Shown one piece after another: positions 1 to 14,124 of a DNA stretch of 14,124 nucleotides. Source of the DNA: a virus (lineage: Duplodnaviria; Heunggongvirae; Uroviricota; Caudoviricetes); IMG/VR virus record IMGVR_UViG_2690316286_000003, positions 1-14,124 of that record; one strand, 5' to 3'. The position numbers and the translations under genes were made by a program. Positions within the stretch are counted from its first letter, which is position 1; every line of letters begins with the position of its first letter. A model generated the notes under the pieces. The model saw only the letters and a list, made by a program, of their open reading frames with translations. It was not told the DNA's origin and did no database searches.

Positions 1-2184
1 CTGAAAATAGCCCGGCGTCAGCTCAATCCGCGACAGCGCTGCCGGTGCGGCAATCCGGAACGATACCGACGCCGGATCGCCCTGCTGCCCCCACGCATTT
101 ACTGCCCGGACTGTCAGCCTGTAGTTCCCCAGCGCCAGTTGTGTGAAGCGGTAAGTGGTTTCCGTCGTCCGGGCCGTGCTGACCAGCCGCTCACTGCCGT
201 CATCCGCTGTTACGGTCAGACGGAGCAGGAAGCTCACGCCCTTCACCACCTTCGGCGTGTCCCAGCGCGCCAGCACCTGATATTCCCCGCTGTCTGCGGT
301 GACTTCGGCAGTCAGGTGCTGCACCGCTGGCGGCGTGACACCATTCACCGTGCCGCTCTGGTCGCCGTCAAAGTGCGCCCCGTTATCCACGATGGCTTCT
401 TTTTCCGGCACATGCTGCACGGCGGTGATGGCATACGTGCCGTCGTCGTTCTCACGGATACTCACGCAGCGGAACAATCGCTGGTGCAGCGTCGGCAGCT
501 TCAGCCCCCACACGCTGTATTCAGCAACACCGTCAGGAACACGGCTCACTTTTACCTTCACGCCGTCGGTGACGGACTGGACCTCCACGCTGACCGGATT
601 CCCCTGCCCGTCAACCAGGCTTATCAGCGTGGTGCCGGAGGATGGCAGCGTGATTTCACGGTCGAGCGTCAGCGTCCGGGTCTGGCTGTTCACCGCCAGC
701 ACGCGCCCGCCGGTGCGGATACCGGCATAGTCATCATCGCAGATTTCAATGACATCGCCCGGTACATGACGAAGCCCTTCAGCACCCACGCTGAAATCCA
801 CGGTCTGCGTCTCCAGCAGTTCCGTTTTAATCAGCCACAGCCCGGCGCGGTGTGCCTGCCCCCGGCTGGTACAGCCAAAGGCATCCATCTTCGTGACGTT
901 ACGACCGTAACGGACAATGGCCTGCGTATCCTCCACAAGCTCTGTCGCCGTCTCCCAGCCGTTATCCGGGTCAATCCAGTTCACCTCAACGGCATTATGG
1001 CGGTCTTTCAGGGCGCTGAAACTGTAGCGGAACGGCGCGCCATCATCCGGCATCACCACATTACTGCGGTTATAGGCCCACACCTTATCCGACTGTCGGT
1101 CCTGCACGAACGTCAGCGTCTGCCCGTTCCATACCGGCATACAGCGCATCGCCGAGCAGAAATCACTGAGCACATCCCACGCCTTGCGCTGTGTGGTCAG
1201 CCAGGCATTACAGGTGATGCGCGGCTCCGTGCTGCCAAAGCCGTCCGGCACCGACTGGTCACAGTACTGGCCGATGACATACAGCGCCCATTTATCCACA
1301 TCTGCCGCACCAAGACGTTTCCCCATGCCATAGCGCGGATGGGTCAGCATATCCCACAGACACCAGGCCATGTTGTTGCTGTATGCCGGTTTTAACGTTC
1401 CGTCCCAGATACCGCTGTATTGCCGCGTCTGCGGATTATAGTTCGACGGCACCTGCAGAATGCGCCCGCGAAGATGATAATTACGGCTCACCTGCTGGCT
1501 GCCGAACTGCTCCGAATCCACCTGTACGCCGACCAGTGCCGTGTTCGGGTAGCACTGTTTCACATCGATGATTTCGGTGTATGACGACCAGAGCGTTTTG
1601 TTCTGCAGCTGGTCTGTGGTGCTGTCCGGCGTCATTCTGCGCATCCGGATATTAAACGGGCGCGGCGGCAGGTTATCCACCACCACCGAGGCCAGATACT
1701 GCGAGGTGGTTTTGCCCTTAATGGTGATGTCTTTTTCCGTCACCCAGCCACCGTTACGCTGTATCTGAACCAGCAGGCGAACTTCAGACGGATTCCTGTC
1801 TCCCTTTGAGGTGGTTTCCACCAGTGCCTGTACACCGAAGGTAAAACGCAGTCGGTCAATGTTTGCCGACGTGATGGTCCGGGTGATCGGCGTGTCATAT
1901 TTCACTTCCGTACCCAGCACCGTCTCGGAGCCGGAGGATTCAAATCCCTCCGGCGGTGACTGCTCCTGCTCACCTGCCCGGAACACCACCGTGACGCCGG
2001 AGATGTTGGTATTCCCCTCACTGTCCAGCACCGGCGTACTGTTCAGCAGCACGCTTTTTAATCCATCCACCGGACCTTCAACCGGCCCTTCGCTGATGGC
2101 ATCGATCACACTCAGCAGCTGCGTGGACTTCAGGTTGTCCTTCGCTTCGCGCGGGGTATGCCCCTTACTGCTGCCTTTACCCAT
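1..2184 (-). CDS. J: Host-specificity / central tail fibre protein J, 5' portion (first 728 codons; 3' end lies beyond position 1)
   Basis: Minus-strand ATG at 2182..2184 with GGAG 8 nt upstream. Translation begins MGKGSSKGHTPREAKDNLKSTQLLSVID, which I recognise as the N-terminus of lambda gpJ. The frame length to the window edge is an exact multiple of 3. Plus-strand ORF 139..1395 is its antisense shadow. Confidence 0.9.
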   Translation of the reverse strand, partial: MGKGSSKGHTPREAKDNLKSTQLLSVIDAISEGPVEGPVDGLKSVLLNSTPVLDSEGNTNISGVTVVFRAGEQEQSPPEGFESSGSETVLGTEVKYDTPITRTITSANIDRLRFTFGVQALVETTSKGDRNPSEVRLLVQIQRNGGWVTEKDITIKGKTTSQYLASVVVDNLPPRPFNIRMRRMTPDSTTDQLQNKTLWSSYTEIIDVKQCYPNTALVGVQVDSEQFGSQQVSRNYHLRGRILQVPSNYNPQTRQYSGIWDGTLKPAYSNNMAWCLWDMLTHPRYGMGKRLGAADVDKWALYVIGQYCDQSVPDGFGSTEPRITCNAWLTTQRKAWDVLSDFCSAMRCMPVWNGQTLTFVQDRQSDKVWAYNRSNVVMPDDGAPFRYSFSALKDRHNAVEVNWIDPDNGWETATELVEDTQAIVRYGRNVTKMDAFGCTSRGQAHRAGLWLIKTELLETQTVDFSVGAEGLRHVPGDVIEICDDDYAGIRTGGRVLAVNSQTRTLTLDREITLPSSGTTLISLVDGQGNPVSVEVQSVTDGVKVKVSRVPDGVAEYSVWGLKLPTLHQRLFRCVSIRENDDGTYAITAVQHVPEKEAIVDNGAHFDGDQSGTVNGVTPPAVQHLTAEVTADSGEYQVLARWDTPKVVKGVSFLLRLTVTADDGSERLVSTARTTETTYRFTQLALGNYRLTVRAVNAWGQQGDPASVSFRIAAPAALSRIELTPGYFQ

Positions 2185-2244
2185 TCGTCATGCTCCATAA
2201 ACGATAAAACCGCCCGGAGGCGATTTCACATAAAACATTTTGCA

Positions 2245-2916
2245 TCAGCGACCAATCACCACAACCTGACCACCGTCCCCTTCGTCTGCCGTGCTGATCT
2301 CCTGAGATACCACACGTGACCCCACGCGCATTTCACCATACAGAACAGGCATAACATTGCCCTGGGCAACCATGTTATCCAGTGAGGAGAAATAGATGTT
2401 CTGCTTACCGTTATCCGTTGTCTGTGTGCGGGGAGTTCTGGCTTTCGGTGCCAGCATCTGAGCCACACCGCCGAGCACCATACTGGCACCGAGAGAAAAC
2501 AGAATGCCGGTCATACCACCGGCACCAATGGCAGCCCCCCATGCTGCAAGGGTGGCTCCGGCGGTAAAGAATGATCCGGCAATGGCGGCTGCTCCCAGGA
2601 CAATCTGGAATACACCACCTGACTTGGCCCCGGCGACTCTGGGAACAATATGAATCACAGCGCCGTCAGGCAGAGCCTCATGTAACTGCGCCGTTAATCC
2701 GGACGTGCTAACATCCTGCCCGGCAATACGCACCTGATACCAGCCGTCGCTCAGCTTCTGACGAAACGCAGGGAGCTGTGTGGCCATCGCCCGGATGGCT
2801 TCGGCACCCGTTTTCACACGAAGGTCGATGCGGCGGCCAAATCGTTGCAAATCCCCGTAAAGGCAGATGCGTGCCATGCCCGGTGACGCCAGAGGGAGTG
2901 TGTGCGTCGCTGCCAT
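2245..2916 (-). CDS. I: Tail tip assembly protein I (223 aa)
   Basis: ORF-track protein MAATHTLPLASPGMARICLYGDLQRF... with a Gly/Ala-rich hydrophobic centre; same length as lambda gpI; overlaps the 3' end of K by 103 nt, as I recall for lambda K/I. Confidence 0.9.
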   Translation of the reverse strand: MAATHTLPLASPGMARICLYGDLQRFGRRIDLRVKTGAEAIRAMATQLPAFRQKLSDGWYQVRIAGQDVSTSGLTAQLHEALPDGAVIHIVPRVAGAKSGGVFQIVLGAAAIAGSFFTAGATLAAWGAAIGAGGMTGILFSLGASMVLGGVAQMLAPKARTPRTQTTDNGKQNIYFSSLDNMVAQGNVMPVLYGEMRVGSRVVSQEISTADEGDGGQVVVIGR

Positions 2917-3557
2917 TTGTCGGTATACCTCTCTCGTTTGCTCAGTTGTTCAGGAATATGGTGCAGCAGCTCGCCGTCACCACAGTAAATGGCGGCATGA
3001 TTCGGCACCGATGAACCAAAACAGCACAGCAGCACATCGCCCGGCTGCGCCGCTGACAACGGCACCTGATACAGCCCTGTGGCCTCCAGATTATCCAGAT
3101 AGAGATTCTGACCGTGACGCCACCAGTCATCCTCACGATGAAAATCCGGCATCTCAATCCCCGCCAGATGGTAAGCATCCCGGAACAGCGTGTAACAGTC
3201 CGTCACCCCGTGCTCAAAGCGCCGCCCGGTAAGATGTGGCACACAGCGGAACTTGTGAATCGCCCCCCGGCAGACCAGCCACCACGGCAAATCACTCTGC
3301 ACCTGCAGCCGCCGGTCGGCCTCACTCAGCCAGGGCAGACCACCGGGGTGGCTGTGGACCAGTGCCACAATCTCACCCTGCATCTCTGCCTGCAGCCAGT
3401 CTTCCGGCGACATACGGAAATACGCCTCCGGCTCACCGGAGATATTCACGCAGGGGAAATATCTTTCCCCCTCCGGCGTTCTTACCACGAAGCCGCACGA
3501 CTCCGCTGGAGCACATCGCCGGGCGTGCGCCAGAATCGCTGATTCTGTCTCTGTCAT
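2814..3557 (-). CDS. K: Tail tip assembly protein K, MPN/JAMM-like plus NlpC/P60-like domains (247-aa ORF; the canonical 199-aa lambda start would be the internal ATG at 3411..3413)
   Basis: Contains HSHPGG...SEAD (JAMM-type HxH...S..D motif) and a downstream Cys/His pair (VTDCYTLF ... HAAIYCGDGELLHH) typical of NlpC/P60. The ORF's first ATG lies 5 nt after the L stop. Confidence 0.85.
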   Translation of the reverse strand: MTETESAILAHARRCAPAESCGFVVRTPEGERYFPCVNISGEPEAYFRMSPEDWLQAEMQGEIVALVHSHPGGLPWLSEADRRLQVQSDLPWWLVCRGAIHKFRCVPHLTGRRFEHGVTDCYTLFRDAYHLAGIEMPDFHREDDWWRHGQNLYLDNLEATGLYQVPLSAAQPGDVLLCCFGSSVPNHAAIYCGDGELLHHIPEQLSKRERYTDKWQRRTHSLWRHRAWHASAFTGICNDLAAASTFV

Positions 3558-3562
3558 GGGAT

Positions 3563-4261
3563 TTACTGCGAAAGTTTGTTAATGGAAAGGAAGCCGCCAA
3601 AGTTGCCGACGTTATTGCGAAACTTACAGCCACTCAGGCATTTGCTGCATTTATCCTTCGTGATGTCGGACGTTGGCTGGTCATATTCATCCGCGACCGC
3701 CGGACCGTGATAACCGCACTCATCGCCGCGATAGGTCCAGGTGCAGGTGTTGGCCAGCATGATACGTCCCGGAAAAACAGCGCCATCTGTTTCCGTCGGC
3801 GTGGACAGTACAAAAGAGGCACTCACCGCGCTCAGTTCGCTGCACTGCTCAATGCGCCAGCGGCTGATCACCTCCTGCTCCGGATCGGCGTCACTGTTTC
3901 CGTTGACGAAGTTCACCGCATCCAGAAAACGGGCGTAAACCTTACGCCGGACCACCGTTCCGCCGACCAGACTCTGTAGATCTTCCGCCATCCCGGTGAC
4001 CATACCGTACAGGTTAGAAACCATCAGCGTGGGGCGCGTACTGGTGCCTTTGCCATTCAGTTCAAAACCACTCCCCTGAATGGGATACGGCTGATACTGT
4101 CGCCCCTGCCAGGTGACCGGCTCACCTTTTTCGTTCTGCTCATTACAGAAAAAATAACGTTCTCCACCGACCTCTGTCAGATCGATTTCCCAGAGCACCA
4201 CGCTGGCCGACTGCTCCGCACGGGTGCATTCATTCAGTGTTTCCTGCCGGATATCCTGCAT
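3563..4261 (-). CDS. L: Tail tip protein L (232 aa), with C-terminal cysteine cluster
   Basis: MQDIRQETLNECTRAEQSASVVLWEIDL... and C-terminal DKCSKCLSGCKF cysteine motif, as in lambda gpL; start overlaps the M stop by 1 nt. Confidence 0.9.
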   Translation of the reverse strand: MQDIRQETLNECTRAEQSASVVLWEIDLTEVGGERYFFCNEQNEKGEPVTWQGRQYQPYPIQGSGFELNGKGTSTRPTLMVSNLYGMVTGMAEDLQSLVGGTVVRRKVYARFLDAVNFVNGNSDADPEQEVISRWRIEQCSELSAVSASFVLSTPTETDGAVFPGRIMLANTCTWTYRGDECGYHGPAVADEYDQPTSDITKDKCSKCLSGCKFRNNVGNFGGFLSINKLSQ

Positions 4262-4590
4262 CAGTTCACCACCTGTTCAAACTCTGCGCTGAACTCAACA
4301 CGCAGCATACTGACCCGCGACGACCATTTTGCGCAGGTCACCTTTATCTGCCGCCACTCATAAGGCGGCGTCCACAGAAAGGCTTTCCAGCCCCCGTGCT
4401 CTTCCAGAAACGACTCCAGTACCATGGCCTCCTCACGGGGGACAGAAAGCGTCACGCTGTACGTTTTCAGGTTGGCATTCAGCCCGGCAGGCGCTCGCTG
4501 GGAATAGCCATCACCAAAGCGCACCTTTCTTACAGAAGGGGCCGAAGCCACATCCATACCGGGTTTCACTTTCCAGCGGAAGGTTTTCAT
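4261..4590 (-). CDS. M: Minor tail protein M (109 aa)
   Basis: MKTFRWKVKPGMDVASAPSVRKVRFGDGYSQR...; 109 aa; start overlaps the H stop by 4 nt (ATGA arrangement). Confidence 0.9.
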   Translation of the reverse strand: MKTFRWKVKPGMDVASAPSVRKVRFGDGYSQRAPAGLNANLKTYSVTLSVPREEAMVLESFLEEHGGWKAFLWTPPYEWRQIKVTCAKWSSRVSMLRVEFSAEFEQVVN

Positions 4591-7148
4591 CGTCCACCTC
4601 CGGAGAACAGGCCACCATCACGCATCTGTGTCTGAATTTCATCACGGGCACCCTTGCGGGCCATGTCATACACGGCCTTCATCATCTGTGGACCTGGCAG
4701 ACCATTCGTACCGTCGTTCTGAATCACCACGTGATTGTTCTGATTAAAATTAATGCCTTCAGCCCGCCGCATCTGCGCCGGACTTCCGGCACCGCCCACA
4801 TAACCACCTTCCGCATAGCCGCGCATCAGCCGGTAGAGATTCCCCACGCCAATCCGGCTGGTTGCCTCCTTCGTGAAGACAAATTCACCACGGTGAACAA
4901 TCCCCGCTGGCTCATATTTGCCGCCGGTTCCCGTAAATCCCCCGGTTGCAAAATGGAATTTCGCCGCAGCGGCCTGAATGGCTGTACCACCTGACGCGGA
5001 TGCGCCGCCACCAACAGCCCCGCCAATGGCGCTGCCGATACTCCCGACAATCCCCACCATTGCCTGCTTAAGCAGAATTTCTGTCATCATGGACAGCACG
5101 GAGCGGGTGAAGCTGCGCCAGTTCTGTTCACTGCCGGTCAGCATCGCCGCCATATTCTGTGCAATACCATCAAAGGTCTGCGTGGCTGCACTTTTAACCT
5201 GTGACATACTGTCCGTGGCGCTCTCTTCCCACTCACTCCAGCCGGACTTCAGGCCTGCCATCCAGCTCCCGCGAAGCTGGTCTTCAGCCGCCCAGGTCTT
5301 TTTCTGCTCTGACATGACGTTATTCAGCGCCAGAGGATTATCGCCATACTGTTCCTTCAGGCGCTGTTCCGTGGCTTCCCGCGCTGCCTGCCGGTCAGTC
5401 AGCCCCCGGTTTTTCGCATCAATGGCTGCCCGTTTTGCCCGTTGCTGCTGTGCGAATTTATCCGCCTGCTGCGCCAGCGCATTCAGGTGCTCCTGATACG
5501 TAACCTTGTCACCAAGTGCAGCCAGCTGGCGTTTGTACTCCAGCGTCTCGTCTTTATGCGCCAGCAGGGATTTCTCCTGTGCGGACAGCTGGCGACGTTG
5601 TGCCGCCTCCTCCAGTACCGCGAACTGACTTTCTGCCTTCCACAAATCCCGGCGCTGCTGGCTGATTTTCTCATTCGCTCCGGCATGCTTCTCCAGCGTC
5701 CGGAGTTCTGCCTGAAGCGTCAGCAGGGCCGCATGAGCACTGTCTTCCTGACGATCGCCCGCATACACCTTCACGCCGGACTGTTTCGGCTTTTTCAGCG
5801 TCGCTTCATAATCCTTTTTCGCCGCCGCCATCAGCGTGTTGTAATCTGCCTGCAGGATTTTTCCGTCTTTCAGTGCCTTGTTCAGTTCTTCCTGACGGGC
5901 GGTATATTTCTCCAGCGGCGTCTGCAGCCGTTCGTAAGCCTTCTGCGCCTCTTCGGTATATTTCAGCCGTGACGCTTCGGTATCGCTCTGCTGCTGCGCA
6001 TTTTTGTCCTGTTGACGCTGTTGATCTACCCTCTTTTGGGCTGCATCCCGCTCCAGGCGTTTTTTTTCACGATCATCCCAGTAACGCGCCCGTGCTTCAT
6101 CGTTAACGAAATAATCATCCTTGCGCAGATTCCAGATGTCGTCTGCTTTCTTAAACGCAGCCTCTGCCTTAATCAGCATCTCCTGCGCGGTATCAGGACG
6201 ACCAATATCCAGCACCGCATCCCACATGGATTTGAATGCACGTGCAGTCCTGTCTGCCCAGGTCTCCAGCGTGCCCATGTTCTCTTTCAGGCGGCGGGTC
6301 TGGTCATCAAACCCTTTCGTTGCGGCCTCGTTCGCCGCCTGCAATGCCCCGGCTTCATCGCCGGAACGCTGCAACTGAGCAACATACGCAATCTGCTCCG
6401 CCGTCACGTTATGGAACTGGCGTGCCATCGCCGTCAGCCCCGACGTCGGGTCTGTGGTCAGCTTCCCGAAGGCTTCAGCGACCTTGTCCACCTCCACGCC
6501 GGATGCAGAGGAGAAACGCGCCACACTCTGGCTGATGGACGCAATCTGAGCCTCACCGCTTACCCCCGCCTTAACCAGTGCGCTGAGTGACTCGCTGGTC
6601 TGGTTAAACGTCAGCCCTGCCGCCTGCCCGGCTCTGGACAGGACCAGCATACGATCTGCCGTCAGTCCCGCCTGATTACCGGAAAGGACCAGCGTTTTGT
6701 TGAAATCGGACAGGGTTGAGTTGCCCTGATACCAGGCATACGCCAGCGCACCGGTCGCCACCGCCAGCGAGGTGGCCCCCACCATCGGCAGGGTGATCGC
6801 GCCGGCAAGCCCCCTGAACATGGGGATCATCCCGCCGAAGGAGTCCTTAACCTGACCACCCTGTTGCAGCAGGATCAGCCAGGGATTCTGCCCCCCTGCA
6901 AGCTGCGTGGCCACGTCGGTGAACTGTGCAGGCAGCATACGCATGGCGGCTTTATACTGCCCGACGGAAATCCCCGCTTTCTGTGCAGCCAGCGCCTGTC
7001 GGCTCAGCGACTGTTCAACGACTGCCGCTGTTTTTTTCGCATCACTTTCCGTACCGGAAAAATGACGCCTGACTCTGGCCATCTGCTCGTCAAATCTGGC
7101 CGCATCCAGACTCAAATCAACGACCAGATCGCCTACCGGTTCAGCCAT
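4587..7148 (-). CDS. H: Tail length tape measure protein H (853 aa), copy A
   Basis: 853-aa ORF starting MAEPVGDLVVDLSLDAARFDEQMARVRRHFSG...; long Ala/Gln/Lys/Arg-rich central region consistent with coiled coil; Gly-rich C-terminal region; position between T and M; length equals lambda gpH. Confidence 0.95.
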   Translation of the reverse strand: MAEPVGDLVVDLSLDAARFDEQMARVRRHFSGTESDAKKTAAVVEQSLSRQALAAQKAGISVGQYKAAMRMLPAQFTDVATQLAGGQNPWLILLQQGGQVKDSFGGMIPMFRGLAGAITLPMVGATSLAVATGALAYAWYQGNSTLSDFNKTLVLSGNQAGLTADRMLVLSRAGQAAGLTFNQTSESLSALVKAGVSGEAQIASISQSVARFSSASGVEVDKVAEAFGKLTTDPTSGLTAMARQFHNVTAEQIAYVAQLQRSGDEAGALQAANEAATKGFDDQTRRLKENMGTLETWADRTARAFKSMWDAVLDIGRPDTAQEMLIKAEAAFKKADDIWNLRKDDYFVNDEARARYWDDREKKRLERDAAQKRVDQQRQQDKNAQQQSDTEASRLKYTEEAQKAYERLQTPLEKYTARQEELNKALKDGKILQADYNTLMAAAKKDYEATLKKPKQSGVKVYAGDRQEDSAHAALLTLQAELRTLEKHAGANEKISQQRRDLWKAESQFAVLEEAAQRRQLSAQEKSLLAHKDETLEYKRQLAALGDKVTYQEHLNALAQQADKFAQQQRAKRAAIDAKNRGLTDRQAAREATEQRLKEQYGDNPLALNNVMSEQKKTWAAEDQLRGSWMAGLKSGWSEWEESATDSMSQVKSAATQTFDGIAQNMAAMLTGSEQNWRSFTRSVLSMMTEILLKQAMVGIVGSIGSAIGGAVGGGASASGGTAIQAAAAKFHFATGGFTGTGGKYEPAGIVHRGEFVFTKEATSRIGVGNLYRLMRGYAEGGYVGGAGSPAQMRRAEGINFNQNNHVVIQNDGTNGLPGPQMMKAVYDMARKGARDEIQTQMRDGGLFSGGGR

Positions 7149-7581
7149 ACCGGACTCCTCCTGCGATCCCTTCTGATACTGTCATCAGCATTACGTCATC
7201 CTCCGTCATGTCCGCCACATCCGGGGAAGCGGGGATAACTTCATTCCCGTCCGGGCCAAAGCGGACACCTCCGGCAAGCCCTGCCGCTTTCTGCATCAGC
7301 ACATCATCTTCAGGCTCTTCGTCAGCCTCGCGCCGGTTCAGCAGACTGAAATCCAGCGGATGCATCTCCGGATCGCTGAAAAACAGGCTGAGCACGGTGT
7401 ACGTCAGCCCGGAAAAGTGCATATCCAGCAGAACATCATGAAAATAATGGGTACTGTAAAAGCGGTGCCAGTCGGCATACTCCGTGGATGACATCCCGGC
7501 AAGCATGGCGCGCCAGTCGGGTCGCCCCATCTCACGCGCCAGTTTCAGGGCAAAACTCAGCTCACCGTCGAACACTTTCCC
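7141..7581 (-). CDS. T: T reading frame of the G-T tail assembly chaperone, reached by -1 frameshift from G (copy A)
   Basis: T-frame runs from the slippery heptamer at 7575..7581 to the stop at 7141..7143; encodes (V)FDGELSFALKLAREMGRPDWRAMLAGM...; overlaps the H start by 8 nt. Confidence 0.85.
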   Translation of the reverse strand, partial: GKVFDGELSFALKLAREMGRPDWRAMLAGMSSTEYADWHRFYSTHYFHDVLLDMHFSGLTYTVLSLFFSDPEMHPLDFSLLNRREADEEPEDDVLMQKAAGLAGGVRFGPDGNEVIPASPDVADMTEDDVMLMTVSEGIAGGVRYG

Positions 7582-7979
7582 GCAGAAACAGGCTCTGCAG
7601 GCCCGGCGTCCTCTGCCTGTTCAGGAGCATCATTCACCACAAACTCATACATACCGGACAGCCGGTACACCACGTTTTCAGCATGAGAAATTGCCTCTGT
7701 GGGCCAGGTGGTAAGCACTTCCTGCTCAATCTGTTTAACGGCTTCATTCATGGACGGCATCTGCGTCTTCTTCGGATGGTTATGCCACAGGGACATCGCA
7801 ACCACAAAAGCGCCGGTTCTGATGGCGTCTTCCACAGTAAACTTCCGGTTGCTGTCTGACTCCGCCTGTTCTGCCTGCCGTTTCATCAGGTCGAGATGCT
7901 CAATACGCTGCAGGGCTGACAGTTCAGAAAGCGTGACGGTCACACCGTTATGTTCAAATGATTCGGTTTTCAGGAACAT
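7557..7979 (-). CDS. G: Tail assembly chaperone G (140 aa), copy A
   Basis: MFLKTESFEHNGVTVTLSELSALQRIEHLDLMKRQAEQAES...; ends ..SAGKCSTVS just after the slippery site; 140 aa as in lambda gpG. Confidence 0.9.
   Translation of the reverse strand: MFLKTESFEHNGVTVTLSELSALQRIEHLDLMKRQAEQAESDSNRKFTVEDAIRTGAFVVAMSLWHNHPKKTQMPSMNEAVKQIEQEVLTTWPTEAISHAENVVYRLSGMYEFVVNDAPEQAEDAGPAEPVSAGKCSTVS
7575..7581 (-). other. Programmed -1 ribosomal frameshift slippery heptamer GGGAAAG (G to G-T), copy A
   Basis: Plus-strand CTTTCCC is GGGAAAG on the minus strand; read in the G frame as G|GGA|AAG (..SAGKCSTVS-stop) and in the -1 frame as GGG|AAA|G.. continuing into T. Confidence 0.8.
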
Positions 7980-7994
7980 CGCTGACTCTCCGGA

Positions 7995-8216
7995 TTAACT
8001 GGCGGTGACGTTGATTTCTGCAACCGCAGCAAACTCACCATTACCAGATACGACCGGAATGTTGACCTTGCCTGCAGCAACACCTTTCACGGTGATGGTC
8101 ATACCACTGACCGACACGGTGGCTTTTGTTTTATCCGCAGACACCGCACGGAAGCTCTTGTCGGTTGCGCCATCCGGCTGGAATGCCACGGTCAGCGTGG
8201 TGCTCTGCCCTTTCAC
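7995..8216 (-). pseudogene. 3' fragment (last 73 codons) of a major tail protein V gene: Ig-like (Big_2-type) C-terminal domain only, left at the duplication junction
   Basis: (GTG)[72 protein letters not shown] aligns to residues 174..250 of the full V at 12274..13026; no V N-terminal tube domain precedes it, the upstream sequence is L instead. Confidence 0.8.
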
Positions 8217-8509
8217 AGACTCTGCAGGTCTTCCGCCATCCCGGTGACCAGACCGAACAGATTGGACACCGTCAGCGACGGTCTGGCACTGCTGCCCCGG
8301 CCGTTCATCTCAAAGCCGCTGCCGTCAATCGGGTATGCCTCATACTTACGCCCCTGCCAGGTGACCGGCTCCCCTTTTTCATTCAGCTCATTACAGAAAA
8401 AATACCGCTCACCACCCTGTACCGTCAGGTCGATTTCCCAGAGTACCACCCGCGGTGACTGCTCTGACTTAACCGACTCGTTCAGACTTTCTTCGCGAAT
8501 ATCCTGCAT
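8213..8509 (-). pseudogene. Truncated tail tip protein L (first 98 codons only), copy B, ended by a stop created at the junction
   Basis: MQDIREESLNESVKSEQSPRVVLWEIDL...GMAEDLQSL-stop is collinear with residues 1..98 of the intact L (3563..4261), which continues ..SLVGGTVVRRK; the C-terminal cysteine cluster is missing. Confidence 0.8.
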
Positions 8510-8838
8510 CAGTTCACCACCTGCTTAAACTCCGCGCTGAACTCAACGCGCAACATCCCGACCCGCGCAGACCACCCGGCACAGGTCACCTTTATCTGCC
8601 GGTATGCATAGGGTGGCTTCCACAAAAATGCCTTCCAGCCACCGTGCTCTGCCAGGAACGCTTCCAGATGCCGGGCCTCCTCCCGGGTCACGGAAAGCGT
8701 CACCCTGTATGTTTTCAGGTCAGCATTCAGCCCTGCCGCCATACGCTGTGAGTACCCGTCACCAAAACGCACTTCACGCACCGATGGCTGCGAGTTCACC
8801 TCCATATCCGGCTTCACTTTCCAGCGAAAGGTTTTCAT
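8509..8838 (-). CDS. M: Minor tail protein M (109 aa), copy B
   Basis: MKTFRWKVKPDMEVNSQPSVREVRFGDGYSQR...; same length as copy A, roughly 83% identical by eye. Confidence 0.9.
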   Translation of the reverse strand: MKTFRWKVKPDMEVNSQPSVREVRFGDGYSQRMAAGLNADLKTYRVTLSVTREEARHLEAFLAEHGGWKAFLWKPPYAYRQIKVTCAGWSARVGMLRVEFSAEFKQVVN

Positions 8839-11408
8839 CCACCGCTCCCTGATAACATACCGCCATCACGCAACTGCAGCCGGAGTTCATCCTGTGCCCC
8901 CTTGCGGGCCATCTCATACACCGCTTTCATCAGCTGCGGCCCTGCCCGCCCGTTGGGGCCGTCGTTCTGAATCACCACGTGATTGTTCTGATTAAAATTA
9001 ATGCCTTCAGCCCGCCGCATCTGCGCCGGACTTCCGGCACCGCCGACATAACCACCTTCCGCATAGCCCCGCATCAGGCGGTACAGATTGCCGACACCAA
9101 TCCGGCTGGTCGCCTCCTTCGTGAAGACAAACTCCCCGCGATGAACAATCCCCGCAGGTTCATATTTACCCCCCGTCCCCGTAAATCCCCCGGTCGCGAA
9201 ATGGAAGTTCGCCGCCGCAGCCTGAATGGCCGTCCCCGTGGAGGCAGACGCACCACCACCGAAAGCACCGCCAATGGCGCTGCCGATACTCCCGACTATC
9301 CCCACCATCGCCTGCTTCAGAAAAATCTCTGTCAGCATGGACAGCACAGAACGGGTGAAACCACGCCAGTTCTGTTCGCTGCCGATCAGCATCGCTGCCA
9401 TATTCTGTGCAATACCGTCAAAGGTCTGCGTGGCCGCGTTTTTAACCTGCGAAAAACTGTCCGTCGCACTTTCCGCCCACTCGCCCCAGCCGGACTTCAT
9501 CCCGGCCATCCAGCTTCCACGAAGCTGCTCCTCCGCAGACCAGGTGTTCTTCAGTGCAGATGTGGCCTTCGCCAGCGCAGCCGGATTATCACCGTACACC
9601 TCACGAAGGCGCTGCTCTTCCGACTCCCGCTGCGCCTGACGGTCGGTGAGTCCGCGGGCTTTTGCGCTGATTGCCGCCTGCTTCGCGCTCTGCTGCTGTT
9701 CAAACCGCGCCGCCTGCTGTGCCAGCTCATTCAGCCGTTTCTGGTGTTCAATCTTGTCGCCCAGCTCAGCCAGCTGGCGTTTGTACTCCAGCGTTTCTTT
9801 CTCATGGGCCAGCAGGGATTTTTCCTGCTCAGATAACTGCCGTTTCGTGGCGGCCTCTTTCAGGACCACATACTGATTTTCCGCTTTCCATAAATCACGG
9901 CGCTGCTGGCTGATTTTTTCATTCGCACCGCTGTGCTTCTCCAGCGTCCTGAGCTCAGTTTCAAGCGCCAGCAGGGCTGCATGCGCCTGGTCTTCCTGGC
10001 GCTCACCGGCAGACACCTTCACACCGGACGGCTTTTTCTGCGTCGACTCATAATCCTTTTTTGCCGACGCCATCAGCGTGTTGTAATCCGCCTGCAGGAT
10101 TTTCCCGTCTTTCAGGGCCTTATTCAGCTCTTCCTGCCGGGCGGTATATTTCTCCAGTGGCGTCAGCAGGCGCTCATACGCCTTCTGCGCCTCTCCGGTA
10201 TACTTCAGCTGTGACGACTCACGCTCAGCCCTGTCCCTTGCCGCCAGTTCACCGGCTTTTTCCATATCCGACTGCAGCGTTGCCGCTGCCAGACCCAGAC
10301 GGGCATTTTCCCGGTCATCCCATGCGCCCTGAAGGTTGGCCCGGAAAGAGGAGGTTTTACCGCGGCGCTGGCTCCGACTCTGGTACCACTGCCATTTTTT
10401 ATCCGCCTCATCAAATGCCTTCTGCGCACTGGCGAGCATATCCGCTGAGGATTCCGGACGACCGATATCCAGAATGGCATCCCACATCGATTTGAATGCC
10501 TTCCCTGTTTTATCCGCCCAGGTCTCCAGTGTTCCCATGTTTTCTTTCAGGCGACGGGTCTGCTCATCAAAGCCTTTCGTGGCGATATCGTTCGCCGCCT
10601 GCAATGCCCCGGCCTCGTCTCCGGAACGCTGCAGCTGTGCAACATACGCAATCTGCTCTGCCGTCACGTTACGGAACTGGCGCGCCATCGCCATCAGTCC
10701 CGACGTCGGGTCAGTGGTCAGCTTCCCGAAGGCTTCAGCGACTTTATCCACCTCCACACCGGATGCAGACGCAAAACGCGCGACACTCTGGTTGATGGCA
10801 TCAAACTGTTCACCACCACGCACACCGGCATTCACCAGGGCTGCCAGTGACTCTCTCGCCTGGTTAAACGTCAGCCCTGCTGCCTGCCCGGCTCTTGAGA
10901 GAGTCAGCATACGATCGGCAGTCAGTCCGGACTGATTACCGGAAAGAACCAGGGTTTTATTAAACGCTGAAAGCGTGGAATCTCCCTGGTACCAGGCGTA
11001 CACCAGTGCACCTGTCGCCACCGCCAGCGAGGTGACCCCGACCATCGGCAGGGTGATCGCATCGGCAAGCCCCCTGAACATGGGGATCATCCCGCCGAAG
11101 GAGTCCTTCACCTGACCGCCCTGTTGCAGCAGGATCAGCCAGGGATTCTGACCACCGGCAAGCTGCGTGGCGATATCCGTAAACTGTGCGGGCAGGGTTC
11201 GCATGGCCGCTTTATACTGCCCGACGGAAATCCCGGCTTTTTGTGCAGCCAGCGCCTGGCGGCTCAGGCCCTGTTCAACAGCACTGGCGGTTTTTCTGGC
11301 GTCGGTATCCAGACCTGAAAAATGACGCCTTACCCGGCTCATCTGCTCATCGAAACGGACAGCATCCAGACTCAGGTCAATAACAAGATCACCAACCGGC
11401 TGGGACAT
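8835..11408 (-). CDS. H: Tail length tape measure protein H (857 aa), copy B (divergent)
   Basis: MSQPVGDLVIDLSLDAVRFDEQMSRVRRHFSG...; collinear with copy A over its full length, with a divergent central block and a near-identical C-terminal region. Confidence 0.95.
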   Translation of the reverse strand: MSQPVGDLVIDLSLDAVRFDEQMSRVRRHFSGLDTDARKTASAVEQGLSRQALAAQKAGISVGQYKAAMRTLPAQFTDIATQLAGGQNPWLILLQQGGQVKDSFGGMIPMFRGLADAITLPMVGVTSLAVATGALVYAWYQGDSTLSAFNKTLVLSGNQSGLTADRMLTLSRAGQAAGLTFNQARESLAALVNAGVRGGEQFDAINQSVARFASASGVEVDKVAEAFGKLTTDPTSGLMAMARQFRNVTAEQIAYVAQLQRSGDEAGALQAANDIATKGFDEQTRRLKENMGTLETWADKTGKAFKSMWDAILDIGRPESSADMLASAQKAFDEADKKWQWYQSRSQRRGKTSSFRANLQGAWDDRENARLGLAAATLQSDMEKAGELAARDRAERESSQLKYTGEAQKAYERLLTPLEKYTARQEELNKALKDGKILQADYNTLMASAKKDYESTQKKPSGVKVSAGERQEDQAHAALLALETELRTLEKHSGANEKISQQRRDLWKAENQYVVLKEAATKRQLSEQEKSLLAHEKETLEYKRQLAELGDKIEHQKRLNELAQQAARFEQQQSAKQAAISAKARGLTDRQAQRESEEQRLREVYGDNPAALAKATSALKNTWSAEEQLRGSWMAGMKSGWGEWAESATDSFSQVKNAATQTFDGIAQNMAAMLIGSEQNWRGFTRSVLSMLTEIFLKQAMVGIVGSIGSAIGGAFGGGASASTGTAIQAAAANFHFATGGFTGTGGKYEPAGIVHRGEFVFTKEATSRIGVGNLYRLMRGYAEGGYVGGAGSPAQMRRAEGINFNQNNHVVIQNDGPNGRAGPQLMKAVYEMARKGAQDELRLQLRDGGMLSGSGG

Positions 11409-11853
11409 ATCTCACACCTCCCGGAATCCCCGCTGAAGCCATCATTAATGCGGCATCATCCACCATGACATCCGCCACATCCGCAGACGATAAAATATCG
11501 CGCCCTCCGTCCCCACCGAACCGGACGCCTCCGGCAAGTCCTGCCGCTTTCTGCATCAGCATTTTGTCCTCATCCGGCCTCTCCACCTGCTCTTCCTCAT
11601 GCCGGGGGACAAGCAGACTGAAATCAGAGGGATGCATATCCGGATCGCAAAAAAACAGGCTGAGTACAGCGTACGTCAGCCCGGAAAAATGCATATCCAG
11701 CTGGGTATCCTGAAAATAATGCGTGCGGTAAAAACGGCGCCAGTCGGCATATTCGGTGGATGTCATCCCGGCAAGCATGGCGCGCCAGTCGGGTCTCCCC
11801 ATCTCACGCGCCAGTCTGAGGGCAAAGTTCAGCTCGCCGTCGAAGACTTTCCC
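11389..11853 (-). CDS. T: T reading frame of the G-T tail assembly chaperone, reached by -1 frameshift from G (copy B)
   Basis: -1 frame from the slippery heptamer reads GKVFDGELNFALRLAREMGRPDWRAMLAGM... and ends ..GVRYVPAGW-stop; overlaps the H copy B start by 20 nt. Confidence 0.85.
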   Translation of the reverse strand, partial: GKVFDGELNFALRLAREMGRPDWRAMLAGMTSTEYADWRRFYRTHYFQDTQLDMHFSGLTYAVLSLFFCDPDMHPSDFSLLVPRHEEEQVERPDEDKMLMQKAAGLAGGVRFGGDGGRDILSSADVADVMVDDAALMMASAGIPGGVRYVPAGW

Positions 11854-12260
11854 GCAGAAAAATCATCATCAGTCAGCGTGTTATTTTTCGCCACTTCAGT
11901 AATATCAGTATCCGGACGAACAGCTTCGATCATCCCGGACAGGCACAACACCACGTCTTCCGCCCGGGCAATGGCATCGGCAGGCCAGGTGGTGAGCACT
12001 TCCTGCTCTATCTTCATCACGGCCTCATTCATTGACGGTGACTGCGTTTTCTGTGGATGGTTATGCCACAGGGACATCGCCACCAGAAACGCGCCGGTTC
12101 TGACGAGATCTTCCACGCTTACCTGCAGGTTGCCGCTGGATTCTGCCTGTTCTGCACGCCGTTTCAGGAGGGCAAGATGCTCGATACGCTGCAGCGCAGA
12201 CAATTCGGAAAGCGTGACAGACACACCGTTATATTCAAATTGTTCTGTTTTCAGAAACAT
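11829..12260 (-). CDS. G: Tail assembly chaperone G (143 aa), copy B
   Basis: MFLKTEQFEYNGVSVTLSELSALQRIEHLALLKRRAEQAES...; collinear with copy A G. Confidence 0.9.
   Translation of the reverse strand: MFLKTEQFEYNGVSVTLSELSALQRIEHLALLKRRAEQAESSGNLQVSVEDLVRTGAFLVAMSLWHNHPQKTQSPSMNEAVMKIEQEVLTTWPADAIARAEDVVLCLSGMIEAVRPDTDITEVAKNNTLTDDDFSAGKSSTAS
11847..11853 (-). other. Programmed -1 ribosomal frameshift slippery heptamer GGGAAAG (G to G-T), copy B
   Basis: Plus-strand CTTTCCC; G frame reads ..SAGKSSTAS-stop through G|GGA|AAG; same heptamer and same position as copy A. Confidence 0.8.
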
Positions 12261-12273
12261 GTATTACCTCCGT

Positions 12274-13026
12274 TTACCCTGCAGCGCCCGCTTCAGTAAC
12301 GGTGACTTCAGCCACTGCGGCGAACTGACCATTTCCGCTCACCACAGGGATCTGCACCTTACCTGTCGCCACGCCGTTTACCGTAATTGTCATATCTTTC
12401 ACACTAATGGTGGCTTTCGACGGATCGGCGGAAACCGCTCTGAACGTCTTGTCGGTTGCACTTTCCGGCTCAAAAGAAACCGTCAGGGTGGTTGTTTTCC
12501 CTTTTGCCACCGTACCGGATGTCGGCGTCACCTTAATCGCACTGACCGGCGTAATTTTGCTGCGTTCTTCCGCTACAGAAGGTTTACCCACGTTAGTGAC
12601 TTTCACCGTGCGGGTGATCACTTCTTTCGCCGTCACGGCCTTACCGATACTGCTGACCCAGCCACGAAACACATCCACCGTGCCATTCGGAAAACGGATT
12701 TTATAGGCCCGGACATCGCCGCTTTCAAACCAGCCTATAAGCCCTTTCTGGCCTTCCTCTCCCGGTTTCCAGGCCAGCGTAAAACTGGTATCACCTGCAG
12801 ATTTCTGCCCCTGCCCGGTCGCGCTCCAGTCCGCGTCTTCATCATCCAGGTAGTTATCATCATAGGATTCAGCCGTCATCTCGCCCGGCGTCAGATCCTT
12901 CACCTTAGCCAGTCGCTGCCAGTCATCGTCTGACAACGGGTTTGCATAAGCATCAGCCTTGCCGTTGTAAACCCACAGAGTGGTACCGGCACCTTTTACC
13001 GGCTCCAGGGGATTTGGTGTTGCCAT
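12274..13026 (-). CDS. V: Major tail (tube) protein V (250 aa) with C-terminal Ig-like domain
   Basis: [49 protein letters not shown]...; C-terminal [23 protein letters not shown]...[17 protein letters not shown] is Ig-like; located between U and G. Confidence 0.9.
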
Positions 13027-13033
13027 ATCGTCC

Positions 13034-13429
13034 TCACATCTCGTATGTAATGGAATAAGTCAGATCCGCAGAGCTCCATAACGCCATATCGTCATCACGA
13101 CGATACTCATAGCCCTGCGTAACCATCGTGGTAATCAGTCCTGCCAGTGCAGGGATCGCAGTCATCGCCGGATAAATCCGGCTTTCCATCCACTGATCGA
13201 GCTCCGAATCAGGTACCTGTGCCGGTAAAAACACCTCAATATGCAGTGTGGCCCGCCAGGTATCTGCATCCAGCTCTTCACCGGTATACTCTGCATCCGT
13301 CAGATAAACCGCGATCGCAGGAAAATCCTCTTCGTCAAAAACAACGGGGCGACCATCAAACAGCGTCGCCCCGTGTTCATGCTGCTCGAGTGCATCCAGC
13401 ACTGCGGCACGAATGTCAGTGTGTTTCAT
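13034..13429 (-). CDS. U: Tail tube terminator protein U (131 aa)
   Basis: [54 protein letters not shown]...; 131 aa as in lambda gpU; position between Z and V. Confidence 0.88.
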
Positions 13430-14001
13430 CGTTTTATCGCAATCCTCAGTTGTTGTTTCAGCGCGTATGCCAGTTCTTTAGGCAGGCGTTCACGCCGGAT
13501 ACGGTCAACATTCTCATCAAATGCCTGTTTCAGTGGGGCCGCCATCGGGATTTTCACCACCTGAATGGGAAGGCGATTACGCTTTTTCCTTCCCTTGTCG
13601 TCATTGCCCTCCTCATATCTGGCCTGGGGAAGACGTTGCATAACATGCCAGCGCCCATTATTTAATCGCTGGATAAATGCCCGCTGATAACGATGCTGAC
13701 CGGCTTTGAGTATGCTGTTCGGACGACGCCCCAGCATTCTGATCCCCAGCTTAATCACAGGGAGATCACCGCGGTTAACGATAATTCTGGCATTCGGATT
13801 TCTGACCGTCGCCCGTTTCAGTCTGGACCGTTCCTTTACCAGTTTCCGTCTCACCCTGGTTTCCCGGGCAACCTGTGACGAAGACTGATTAATCGCCGTT
13901 GTGGCCACGCGGTTAATGGTCATTGCAGAAGCAGCCGGAATGGCGTTTTTACGAACCCGGCTCAGATTGTCAATCGCCTGATCAAGCCCTTTTATCGCCA
14001 T
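13426..14001 (-). CDS. Z: Tail completion protein Z (191 aa)
   Basis: MAIKGLDQAIDNLSRVRKNAIPAASAMTINRVA...[25 protein letters not shown]; basic protein of lambda gpZ length; overlaps the U start by 4 nt. Confidence 0.85.
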   Translation of the reverse strand: MAIKGLDQAIDNLSRVRKNAIPAASAMTINRVATTAINQSSSQVARETRVRRKLVKERSRLKRATVRNPNARIIVNRGDLPVIKLGIRMLGRRPNSILKAGQHRYQRAFIQRLNNGRWHVMQRLPQARYEEGNDDKGRKKRNRLPIQVVKIPMAAPLKQAFDENVDRIRRERLPKELAYALKQQLRIAIKR

Positions 14002-14015
14002 AATTCACCCTGCGT

Positions 14016-14124
14016 TTATCGTCGCCGGTTAACTGCGGGTGGTTGCCCACGGTTGAGCCAGAGATAACAGCTGCCCCCGTCATCCGGAGATGTCAGCGCC
14101 AGTGATATAAGACGGTAATTCGCC
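14016..14124 (-). CDS. 3' end of an upstream ORF, probably the head-tail joining protein FII (5' end beyond the window)
   Basis: Open minus-strand frame from the window edge (..ANYRLISLALTSPDDGGSCYLWLNRGQPPAVNRRR) to TAA at 14016..14018, 14 nt before the Z start; identity inferred from synteny only. Confidence 0.4.
   Translation of the reverse strand, partial: ANYRLISLALTSPDDGGSCYLWLNRGQPPAVNRRR

What the first reader, a model, noticed from the sequence alone, without database searches (positions are those of the whole stretch)
8195..8240. Non-homologous junction: L codon 98 fused to V codon about 174, with GTGA stop/start overlap
At plus 8213..8216 (TCAC, GTGA on the minus strand) the L frame ends in TGA right after ..MAEDLQSL, and a GTG in another frame opens the 73-codon V fragment. 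The intact L continues past this point (..SLVGGTVV). I see at most 2-4 bp of shared sequence at the crossover, which suggests illegitimate rather than homologous recombination. The overlap resembles the coupled stop/starts elsewhere in the operon, so the orphan Ig-like domain might be translated as a small free protein.
Basis: partly seen in the sequence, partly recalled or inferred. Interest (0 to 1): 0.5.

Follow-up and report, generated by a model that had tools for sequence, protein, structure and literature searches.

The report
Dead-end join between two Shigella prophages
The junction is really in the sequence: the tail-gene block of one Shigella sonnei prophage is butted, with a single shared base, onto the tail-gene block of another, leaving two broken gene stubs that probably do nothing, and I cannot rule out an assembly error.

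Summary
On the minus strand, L stops after codon 98 (..[11 protein letters not shown]). A GTG overlapping that stop (GTGA, 8216-8213) opens the last 73 codons of V.

The two sides are not one diverged duplication. Window 1-8216 is 100% identical to a lambda-like S. sonnei prophage (P1). Window 8216-14124 is 99.97% identical to a second, IS-disrupted S. sonnei prophage (P2). In finished genome CP032523.1 they lie about 558 kb apart, and V and L are intact there. The two identities overlap by one nucleotide, so the join is non-homologous.

I found the junction nowhere else: not in 5,426 complete E. coli genomes, phage records, GTDB representatives, IMG/VR or JGI metagenomes, nor in any S. sonnei contig read.

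Best reading (0.55): a recent, private illegitimate recombination that left two dead fragments. Main rival (0.33): an assembly chimera. Only reads can separate them.

The idea of a free Ig-like protein is weak:
- The GTG is simply Val174 of V.
- There is no well-placed Shine-Dalgarno sequence.
- The fragment lacks the first ~13 residues of the Big_2 domain.
- In the reference genomes, IS elements cut P2's late operon off from its upstream genes.

Low interest.

The parts
8213..8509 (-). L' : truncated minor tail protein L, codons 1-98 plus a TGA created by the join; derived from prophage P2
   Evidence: ORF list and translation. Pfam Phage_tail_L profile 3-70 of 206 only. 100% identical to the 5' part of the intact 232-aa L of S. 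sonnei P2 and of CFT073.
7995..8216 (-). 'V : 3' fragment of the lambda-type major tail protein V, codons 174-246; the GTG 'start' is the Val174 codon; derived from prophage P1
   Evidence: Pfam Big_2 profile 16-78 of 79. The parent V is about 98% identical to lambda gpV, PDB 6p3e.
8213..8216 (-). Crossover point and GTGA stop/start overlap. The G at 8216 is the only base assignable to both parents.
   Evidence: Junction ..CAGAGTCTG|TGAAAGGG.. against L parent ..CAGAGTCTGGTGGGGGCC.. and V parent ..TCCGTAGTGAAAGGG... The BLAST blocks meet at 8216.
1..8216 (-). P1-derived block: 'V, G, T (G/GT slippery site 7575-7581), H (4587-7148), M, intact L (3563-4261), K, I and part of J
   Evidence: 8216/8216 identical to CP032523.1 (L029) and FTUS01000059.1 (L031), where V is intact at 246 aa.
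8216..14124 (-). P2-derived block: Z, U, intact V (12274-13026), G, T (slippery site 11847-11853), H (8835-11408), M, L'
   Evidence: 5907/5909 identical to CP032523.1 (L018) and 5908/5909 to CP060117.1 (L022). L is intact (232 aa) in all 27 contigs read.
14091..14124 (.). Probable outer end (last 34 nt) of the IS21-family element that lies upstream of Z in S. sonnei P2
   Evidence: Homology to IS-free relatives (CFT073, L003, L006, E. coli genomes) stops at 14090. In L018 the window's end maps 68 nt beyond the start of an IS21-type transposase gene at 6045-7217. The IS boundary itself is inferred.

Best explanation
The junction is the scar of one recent non-homologous (illegitimate) recombination between two lambdoid prophages that normally sit apart in the Shigella sonnei chromosome. 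The event joined codon 98 of L in the defective, IS-disrupted prophage P2 to codon 174 of V in the lambda-like prophage P1.

Shown:
- Both parents are identified at 99.97-100% identity.
- Only 1 nt is shared at the crossover.
- Both genes are intact in every other genome examined.

Inferred:
- In the one finished genome where both positions are known, the order in the sense of transcription is P1, then about 558 kb, then P2. A P2-left::P1-right joint therefore cannot be a simple deletion.
- It fits insertion of an excised circular P1 into P2's L gene, which predicts a reciprocal V(1-173)::L(99-232) joint about one prophage length away. It also fits the novel joint of a large tandem duplication.
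- The likely chemistry is break-and-join without homology, of the kind known from the formation of lambda specialised transducing phages.

Consequences:
- L' keeps only the N-terminal third of L and V' is an N-terminally clipped Ig-like domain. Both are pseudogene fragments.
- The GTGA overlap is accidental.
- All tail functions still exist intact once in the window: V from P2, L, K and I from P1, and G, T, H and M from both. No new function is created.
For: - Parent alignments across the break.
- Window 1-8216 is 100% identical to P1 and window 8216-14124 is 99.97% identical to P2, both in the same genome CP032523.1, at 4.83-4.85 Mb and 4.27-4.30 Mb in the same orientation.
- There are no indels in 14,124 nt relative to these references, so the sequence is of high quality.
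- Nothing foreign sits at the joint: no N, adaptor, IS or repeat.
- A de Bruijn or overlap assembler needs shared sequence to mis-join, and there is none here (inference).
- The suspected coincidence with contig ends on the L side disappeared under a control. Partial L proteins ending at codons 94-103 occur on 9, 17, 156, 2, 15, 12, 35, 5, 10 and 8 contigs, so codon 98 is not special.
- In the contigs read, S. sonnei draft assemblies were not broken at either site. The size classes point the same way: contigs carrying P2's H are mostly 10-20 kb and those carrying P1's H mostly 20-50 kb.
Against: - The junction is a singleton. It is absent from 5,426 complete E. coli genomes and from INPHARED phages, from GTDB representatives, IMG/VR and JGI metagenomes, and from all 27, 24 and 43 contigs read that carry the exact H(P2), H(P1) and G(P1) proteins.
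- No independent assembly called the 98-aa L' inside a contig or the 73-aa V' next to it.
- The V-side breakpoint falls exactly where Logan contigs from 57 index blocks begin (GTGAAAGGG), against 4 contigs for the next three positions. A contig-end artefact would produce this.
- The implied rearrangement, a duplication joint or a relocated prophage, is unusual and cannot be seen within the window.
- In one Shigella study, only 1 region among 20 duplication/deletion calls made between assemblies was confirmed by both read types (PMC8092226).
Confidence: 0.55

Rival explanations
1. The junction is an assembly or curation chimera. Two sequence blocks from the two S. sonnei prophages were joined end to end, through a chimeric read or clone, a wrong bridge, or contigs concatenated without Ns. 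It does not exist in the cell.
For: - It is a singleton in every collection searched.
- Both flanks are essentially identical to prophages that are separate and intact in all finished S. sonnei genomes read.
- The V-side end coincides to the base with a frequent start of short-read contigs (57 blocks).
- Some deposited contigs end at ..CAGAGTCTG or ..CAGAGTCT, exactly the L-side end needed for a blunt abutment (L005, L006).
- The join makes no biological sense: it is out of frame and leaves two dead stubs.
- Assembly-level structural variants in Shigella are often not reproducible (PMC8092226).
Against: - Control one search shows that contig ends at L codon 98 are no more frequent than at neighbouring codons.
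- The contigs that end or start at these sites are mostly E. coli prophages at 91-99% identity, not S. sonnei P1 or P2.
- The S. sonnei draft contigs read are not broken there.
- Abutting the usual graph ends (..CTGGT plus GTGAAAGG..) would give CTGGTGTGAAAGG or CTGGTGAAAGG, not the observed CTGTGAAAGG.
- Graph and overlap assemblers need shared sequence to mis-join, and only 1 nt is shared.
- There are no Ns or adaptor sequence at the joint.
Confidence: 0.33
2. The join is real and the GTGA overlap acts as a translational coupling site. Ribosomes finishing L' restart at the GTG and make a free 73-aa Ig-like protein.
For: - The stop/start overlap geometry matches the ATGA overlaps of Z/U and H/M in the same operon.
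- K also lacks a Shine-Dalgarno sequence and presumably relies on coupling.
- The fragment still scores as Big_2, E=5e-17.
- The same 73-aa ORF has been annotated as a protein elsewhere (SIY26145.1).
Against: - The GTG is the internal Val174 codon in every intact V.
- The best anti-SD pairing is -4.8 kcal/mol and lies 15-20 nt upstream, which is too far.
- Big_2 profile positions 1-15 are missing. The low-confidence model of the intact V places two strands before the breakpoint. The model of the fragment alone is poor, pLDDT 53.
- In the reference genomes, two IS elements lie between P2's lysis genes and Z and no head gene is called there, so late transcription into this block is doubtful.
- The other annotated 73-aa ORFs arise from a 1-nt frameshift in V, not from selection for a free domain.
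Confidence: 0.05
3. The true joint used the shared GTG and is in frame (CTG GTG AAA). It would encode a 171-aa L(1-98)-V(174-246) fusion, and the missing G is a sequencing error.
For: Both parents have GTG at the break, offset by 1 nt. Adding a single G restores one continuous frame.
Against: There are no indels in 14,124 nt compared with the S. sonnei references. An indel error at exactly this base is therefore very unlikely, and GG is only a 2-base run.
Confidence: 0.03

Closest known systems
Illegitimate (short-homology-independent) recombination in E. coli and lambda, as in the formation of lambda gal/bio specialised transducing phages (Ikeda and co-workers; recalled from memory, not checked here)
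   Same: A phage/prophage DNA join at non-homologous positions with 0-1 nt of shared sequence and no site-specific recombination signal. One partner is a lambda-like prophage.
   Different: Here both partners are prophage tail genes and no transducing phage results. Enzyme involvement (gyrase, end-joining) is pure inference.
Mosaic evolution of lambdoid phages by non-homologous recombination followed by selection (Hendrix and Juhala model; recalled from memory)
   Same: A novel joint between two lambdoid genomes at unrelated positions produces a heterologous tandem repeat of V'-G-T-H-M-L'. This is the kind of mostly non-functional intermediate the model predicts.
   Different: The joint is inside genes and out of frame, is unselected, and is seen only once. 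It is not a joint at a gene boundary that has spread.
Frameshifted V genes that yield the same 73-aa ORF (metagenome contig L013; S. sonnei SIY26145.1)
   Same: An identical 73-aa ORF starting at the Val174 GTG and overlapping an upstream stop.
   Different: Those arise from a 1-nt insertion about 25 nt upstream within one V gene (TAG/GTG overlap). They do not arise from fusion to L.
Phage lambda gpV C-terminal Ig-like domain (PDB 2l04; full V in 6p3e)
   Same: The V fragment comes from a V about 98% identical to lambda gpV and covers most of its Big_2 domain.
   Different: The solved construct matches V residues 158-246, whereas the fragment starts at 174. It therefore lacks 16 residues of that construct and Big_2 profile positions 1-15.

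Membership tests
Illegitimate (non-homologous) recombination junction | Both parental sequences can be identified and each aligns only on its own side of the break | tested here: met
   P2 L up to 8216 and P1 V from 8216.
Illegitimate (non-homologous) recombination junction | No more homology at the crossover than chance gives (0 to a few nt) | tested here: met
   1 nt shared. The chance of at least 1 nt for a random join is about 0.44.
Illegitimate (non-homologous) recombination junction | No mobile-element end, att site or repeat at the joint that would point to site-specific or transpositional recombination | tested here: met
   Only short chance repeats in 8100-8330. The nearest IS sequence is at 14091-14124.
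Illegitimate (non-homologous) recombination junction | The joint physically exists in the organism's DNA (read, PCR or independent-assembly support) | not testable with these tools
   No reads are available, and no second assembly carries the joint.
Assembly chimera | Both sides of the joint coincide with ends of assembly units (graph branch points) | tested here: inconclusive
   V side yes: 57 blocks of contigs start at GTGAAAGGG against 4 contigs at the next positions. L side no: codon 98 is not enriched over codons 94-103. The S. sonnei drafts read are not broken at either site.
Assembly chimera | Gap filler, adaptor or vector sequence, or a drop in sequence quality, at the joint | tested here: not met
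   The parents abut directly. There are no indels in 14 kb against the references.
Translationally coupled gene pair (stop/start overlap) | Overlapping stop and start codons | tested here: met
   GTGA at 8216-8213.
Translationally coupled gene pair (stop/start overlap) | The start codon is used as a start in homologues, or is preceded by a Shine-Dalgarno sequence at 5-12 nt | tested here: not met
   It is the internal Val174 codon in intact V genes. The best SD pairing is -4.8 kcal/mol at 15-20 nt upstream.
Stand-alone Ig-like (Big_2) domain protein | The complete domain is present | tested here: not met
   Big_2 profile 16-78 of 79 in the fragment against 2-77 in intact V, residues 161-239. 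The AF2 models have low confidence.
Ancient tandem gene duplication within one phage | The two copies descend from one locus and diverged in place | tested here: not met
   The copies are 79-89% identical to each other. Yet each is 99.97-100% identical to a different prophage located elsewhere in S. sonnei genomes.

The most novel reading that the evidence does not exclude
The joint is real and records a lambda-like prophage (P1) that excised and re-inserted by homology-free recombination into the tail operon of a defective neighbour (P2). The result would be a nested prophage with two different, complete tail-assembly modules read in one direction. That would be a caught-in-the-act intermediate of lambdoid mosaic evolution, possibly also releasing a clipped Ig-like peptide by termination-reinitiation.
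Probability: 0.12. Interest if true: 0.35.

Novelty: new member of a known kind. Interest (0 to 1): 0.12.

Why it matters
If real, this is one more example of homology-free recombination between co-resident prophages. It has clean, datable parents, with essentially no divergence since the event, and that gives it modest value as an illustration of how mosaic phage genomes start. It creates no new gene or function.

Its practical importance is as a warning. The window should not be annotated as a phage with duplicated tail genes or a new small Ig-like protein until reads confirm the joint.

Tried and rejected
1. An old in-place tandem duplication. Rejected because each copy matches a different S. 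sonnei prophage at 99.97-100%.

2. 'Both breakpoints sit on recurrent contig ends, therefore a chimera'. This was my working idea. The L-side half was rejected by the codon 94-103 control. The V-side half stands. It may simply reflect divergence between V alleles just upstream of a conserved stretch: the aligned V types differ upstream of GTGAAAGGG and agree after it.

3. The 73-aa ORF annotated in S. sonnei (SIY26145.1) and in contig L013 as independent evidence for the junction. Rejected for L013, which carries a 1-nt insertion frameshift inside V. The S. sonnei contig itself was not displayed and is inferred to be the same kind.

4. Searches for the source or a second copy all gave nothing. 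These were:
   - the exact junction in genome contigs, viral contigs and metagenome contigs;
   - the predicted reciprocal joint in viral contigs;
   - the sequence just beyond the window's left end in genome contigs, to look for a masked source. It gave 6 loci, none with N runs and none more than 96.5% identical.

5. Chi-driven processing. The L parent has TCTGGTGG (7 of 8 Chi bases) across the break. The break lies inside the octamer rather than 4-6 nt to its 3' side, and there is no true Chi in the window. Not pursued.

6. AlphaFold on V' and on the intact V. These were single-sequence models with pLDDT 53 and 45, too poor to decide whether the fragment can fold.

7. Literature searches found no description of this rearrangement.

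Full report
**What is in the window**

All real genes are on the minus strand, and they form a lambdoid tail operon written twice.
- First set: Z (14001-13426), U, V (13026-12274, 250 aa), G, T, H (11408-8835, 857 aa), M (8838-8509), then an L ORF of only 98 codons (8509-8213).
- Second set: a 73-codon 3' piece of V (8216-7995), G (7979-7557), T, H (7148-4587, 853 aa), M, a full L (4261-3563, 232 aa), K, I and part of J.

The two sets are 79-89% identical at start-to-start spacings of about 4.25 kb.

**The observation**

It is correct as written.
- L' ends ..MAEDLQSL followed by TGA.
- The GTG at 8216-8214 overlaps that stop as GTGA.
- The full L in the window continues ..SLVGGTVV.

I aligned the joint with an intact L of the same type (CFT073, locus L002) and an intact V of the same type (NCTC9082, locus L001). 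This defines the break:
- L parent: ..CAGAGTCTGGTGGGGGCC..
- V parent: ..TCCGTAGTGAAAGGGCAG..
- Window: ..CAGAGTCTGTGAAAGGGCAG..

Only one base (the G at 8216) can be assigned to both parents, which is what chance gives. Both parents carry GTG at the break, offset by one base. A GTG-mediated join would have been in frame, but the window is one G shorter. L therefore reads CTG TGA, and the GTGA overlap is an accident of V's own ..GTG AAA.. sequence. Nothing else marks the joint: there is no N, IS end or meaningful repeat.

**Where the two halves come from**

Exact-protein look-ups of the two tape-measure proteins led to Shigella sonnei chromosomes.
- Window 1-8216 is 8216/8216 identical to a prophage I call P1. 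It is locus L029, CP032523.1 4,827,851-4,850,412. It has a full head and tail gene set and an intact V of 246 aa that is about 98% identical to phage lambda gpV.
- Window 8216-14124 is 5907/5909 identical to a second prophage, P2. It is locus L018, in the same genome at 4,273,855-4,296,428. It is 5908/5909 identical to the P2 copy in CP060117.1.
- In P2 the called genes run from lysis genes through two IS elements straight to Z, with no head gene between, and L is intact at 232 aa.
- The last 34 nt of the window (14091-14124) lie beyond the point where homology to IS-free relatives stops. They map 68 nt from the start of the IS21-type transposase gene, so they are probably the outer end of that IS. 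The window therefore sits at the S. sonnei P2 locus.
- One synonymous difference at 9009 is private to the window among ten genomes compared.

The 'duplication' is thus two different resident prophages joined, and the join is very recent or artificial.

**Geometry**

In CP032523.1 both prophages point the same way. In the sense of transcription, P1 comes first and P2 follows about 558 kb later. A P2-left::P1-right joint therefore cannot be a simple deletion in that arrangement. It could be one of two things (inference):
- one of the two joints made when an excised circular P1 inserts into P2's L gene;
- the novel joint of a tandem duplication of about 558 kb.

The window ends inside P1's J gene, so neither can be checked here.

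**Is the joint seen anywhere else?**

No.
- No place covers the joint in 5,426 complete E. coli genomes or 50,697 phage records. The matches break at 8216.
- The exact 34-mer across the joint is absent from the GTDB representative genomes, IMG/VR and the JGI metagenomes.
- All 27 contigs read with the exact P2 H protein, including every one longer than 1 Mb, have an intact L after M.
- All 24 contigs read with the P1 H protein and all 43 read with the P1 G protein have an intact V.
- The 98-aa L' occurs in databases only as a partial gene at contig ends.
- The 73-aa ORF was found on three contigs. The one shown (L013) has V broken by a 1-nt insertion that gives a TAG/GTG overlap, which is a different origin. 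The other two were grouped with it as similar places.

**Real event or assembly chimera?**

I first suspected a chimera, for two reasons.
- Many short-read contigs end at L codon 98.
- Many Logan contigs start exactly at GTGAAAGGG: 57 index blocks, against 4 contigs for the next three positions.

A control removed the L-side argument. Partial L proteins ending at codons 94 to 103 are found on 9, 17, 156, 2, 15, 12, 35, 5, 10 and 8 contigs, so codon 98 is ordinary.

Further points weigh against a chimera.
- Most of those contigs come from E. coli prophages 91-99% identical to the window, not from S. sonnei P1 or P2.
- The S. sonnei draft contigs that were read carry both prophages unbroken at these sites. 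The size classes point the same way: 10-20 kb for most contigs with P2's H and 20-50 kb for most with P1's H.
- The common graph ends (..CTGGT and GTGAAAGG..) would not give the observed CTGTGAAAGG when abutted.
- The sequence has no indel in 14 kb against the references.
- Assemblers need shared sequence to mis-join, and here there is one base (inference).

Points in favour of a chimera remain.
- The V-side coincidence stands.
- The joint is a singleton.
- It implies an unusual rearrangement.
- In one Shigella study only 1 region among 20 duplication/deletion calls made between assemblies held up in both read types (PMC8092226).

I put a real private event at 0.55 and a chimera at 0.33. Only reads or a PCR can decide.

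**Function**

- L' keeps Pfam Phage_tail_L positions 3-70 of 206 and is a dead stub.
- V' scores as Big_2 but only over profile positions 16-78 of 79. In intact V the domain spans residues 161-239, so about 13 residues at the domain's start are missing. The solved lambda domain construct (2l04) matches V residues 158-246.
- A low-confidence model of the window's intact V places two short strands just before the point equivalent to the break. The model of V' alone is poor.
- The GTG is simply Val174 of V. The best anti-Shine-Dalgarno pairing upstream is -4.8 kcal/mol and lies 15-20 nt away. Most genuine starts in the operon score -6 to -11.6, although Z (-3.9) and K (+0.7) are also weak or lack one, so low-level reinitiation cannot be excluded.
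- In the reference genomes two IS elements lie between P2's lysis genes and Z, so late transcription into this block is doubtful (inference).

The suggestion of a free Ig-like protein is therefore weak (about 0.05).

**Comparison with what is known**

The joint behaves like a classical illegitimate recombination junction of the short-homology-independent kind known from lambda transducing-phage formation. It also fits the non-functional intermediates predicted by the Hendrix model of lambdoid mosaicism. Both comparisons are from memory and were not tested here. It meets the sequence-level criteria for such a junction, but its physical existence is untested. It is not an ancient duplication, not a coupled gene pair and not a complete stand-alone Ig domain.

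**Verdict**

This is an ordinary kind of event if real, and possibly an artefact. Interest is low (0.12).

Noticed in passing
window 14091-14124: The last 34 nt of the window are probably the outer end of an IS21-family element. In S. sonnei prophage P2 this IS and an IS3-family element lie between the lysis genes and Z, with no head gene called there. This places the window at the S. sonnei P2 locus and suggests that P2's late operon is cut off from its upstream genes.
   Followed up: partly
window 7575-7581 (-) and 11847-11853 (-): Both copies of the G gene keep GGGAAAG just before the G stop codon. From memory, this is the lambda G/GT -1 frameshift heptamer. If so, both tail-chaperone modules look intact.
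   Followed up: partly
L013 9960-10005 (metagenome contig ERZ19692899 k141_44968); also S. sonnei protein SIY26145.1: The identical 73-aa ORF starting at Val174 of V is annotated elsewhere. In L013 a 1-nt insertion about 25 nt upstream frameshifts V into a TAG that overlaps the same GTG. This is an independent route to the same orphan ORF.
   Followed up: yes
window 8216 and Logan contigs L034-L043: Logan contigs from 57 index blocks begin exactly at GTGAAAGGG (V codon 174), for V alleles 96-100% identical to the window. The aligned V types differ just upstream of this point and agree after it. It is therefore a frequent assembly-graph branch point about 13 codons inside the Big_2 domain.
   Followed up: partly
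L002 around 6001 (CFT073 L) and L018 13193 (S. sonnei P2 L); equivalent of window 8216: The intact L parent carries TCTGGTGG, 7 of 8 bases of Chi (GCTGGTGG), straddling the breakpoint. There is no true Chi anywhere in the window. This is probably coincidence.
   Followed up: partly
window 9009: A synonymous single-base difference in the P2 tape-measure gene H, private to the window relative to all ten S. sonnei genomes compared. Otherwise the window's P2 part is identical to CP060117.1.
   Followed up: no
window 4172 (L of P1, codon ~30); L014 and L034: Two Logan contigs (SRR7266810, SRR7172059) are 99.95% identical to the window. They span exactly V codon 174 or 175 to L codon 30. This suggests a segment of about 4 kb (V'-G-T-H-M-L') present in two contexts in those samples.
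   Followed up: no
window 4587-7148 vs 8835-11408: The two tape-measure genes differ in length (853 and 857 aa). Their identity is patchy, with repeat families at 80-89% and stretches that were not picked up at all.
   Followed up: no
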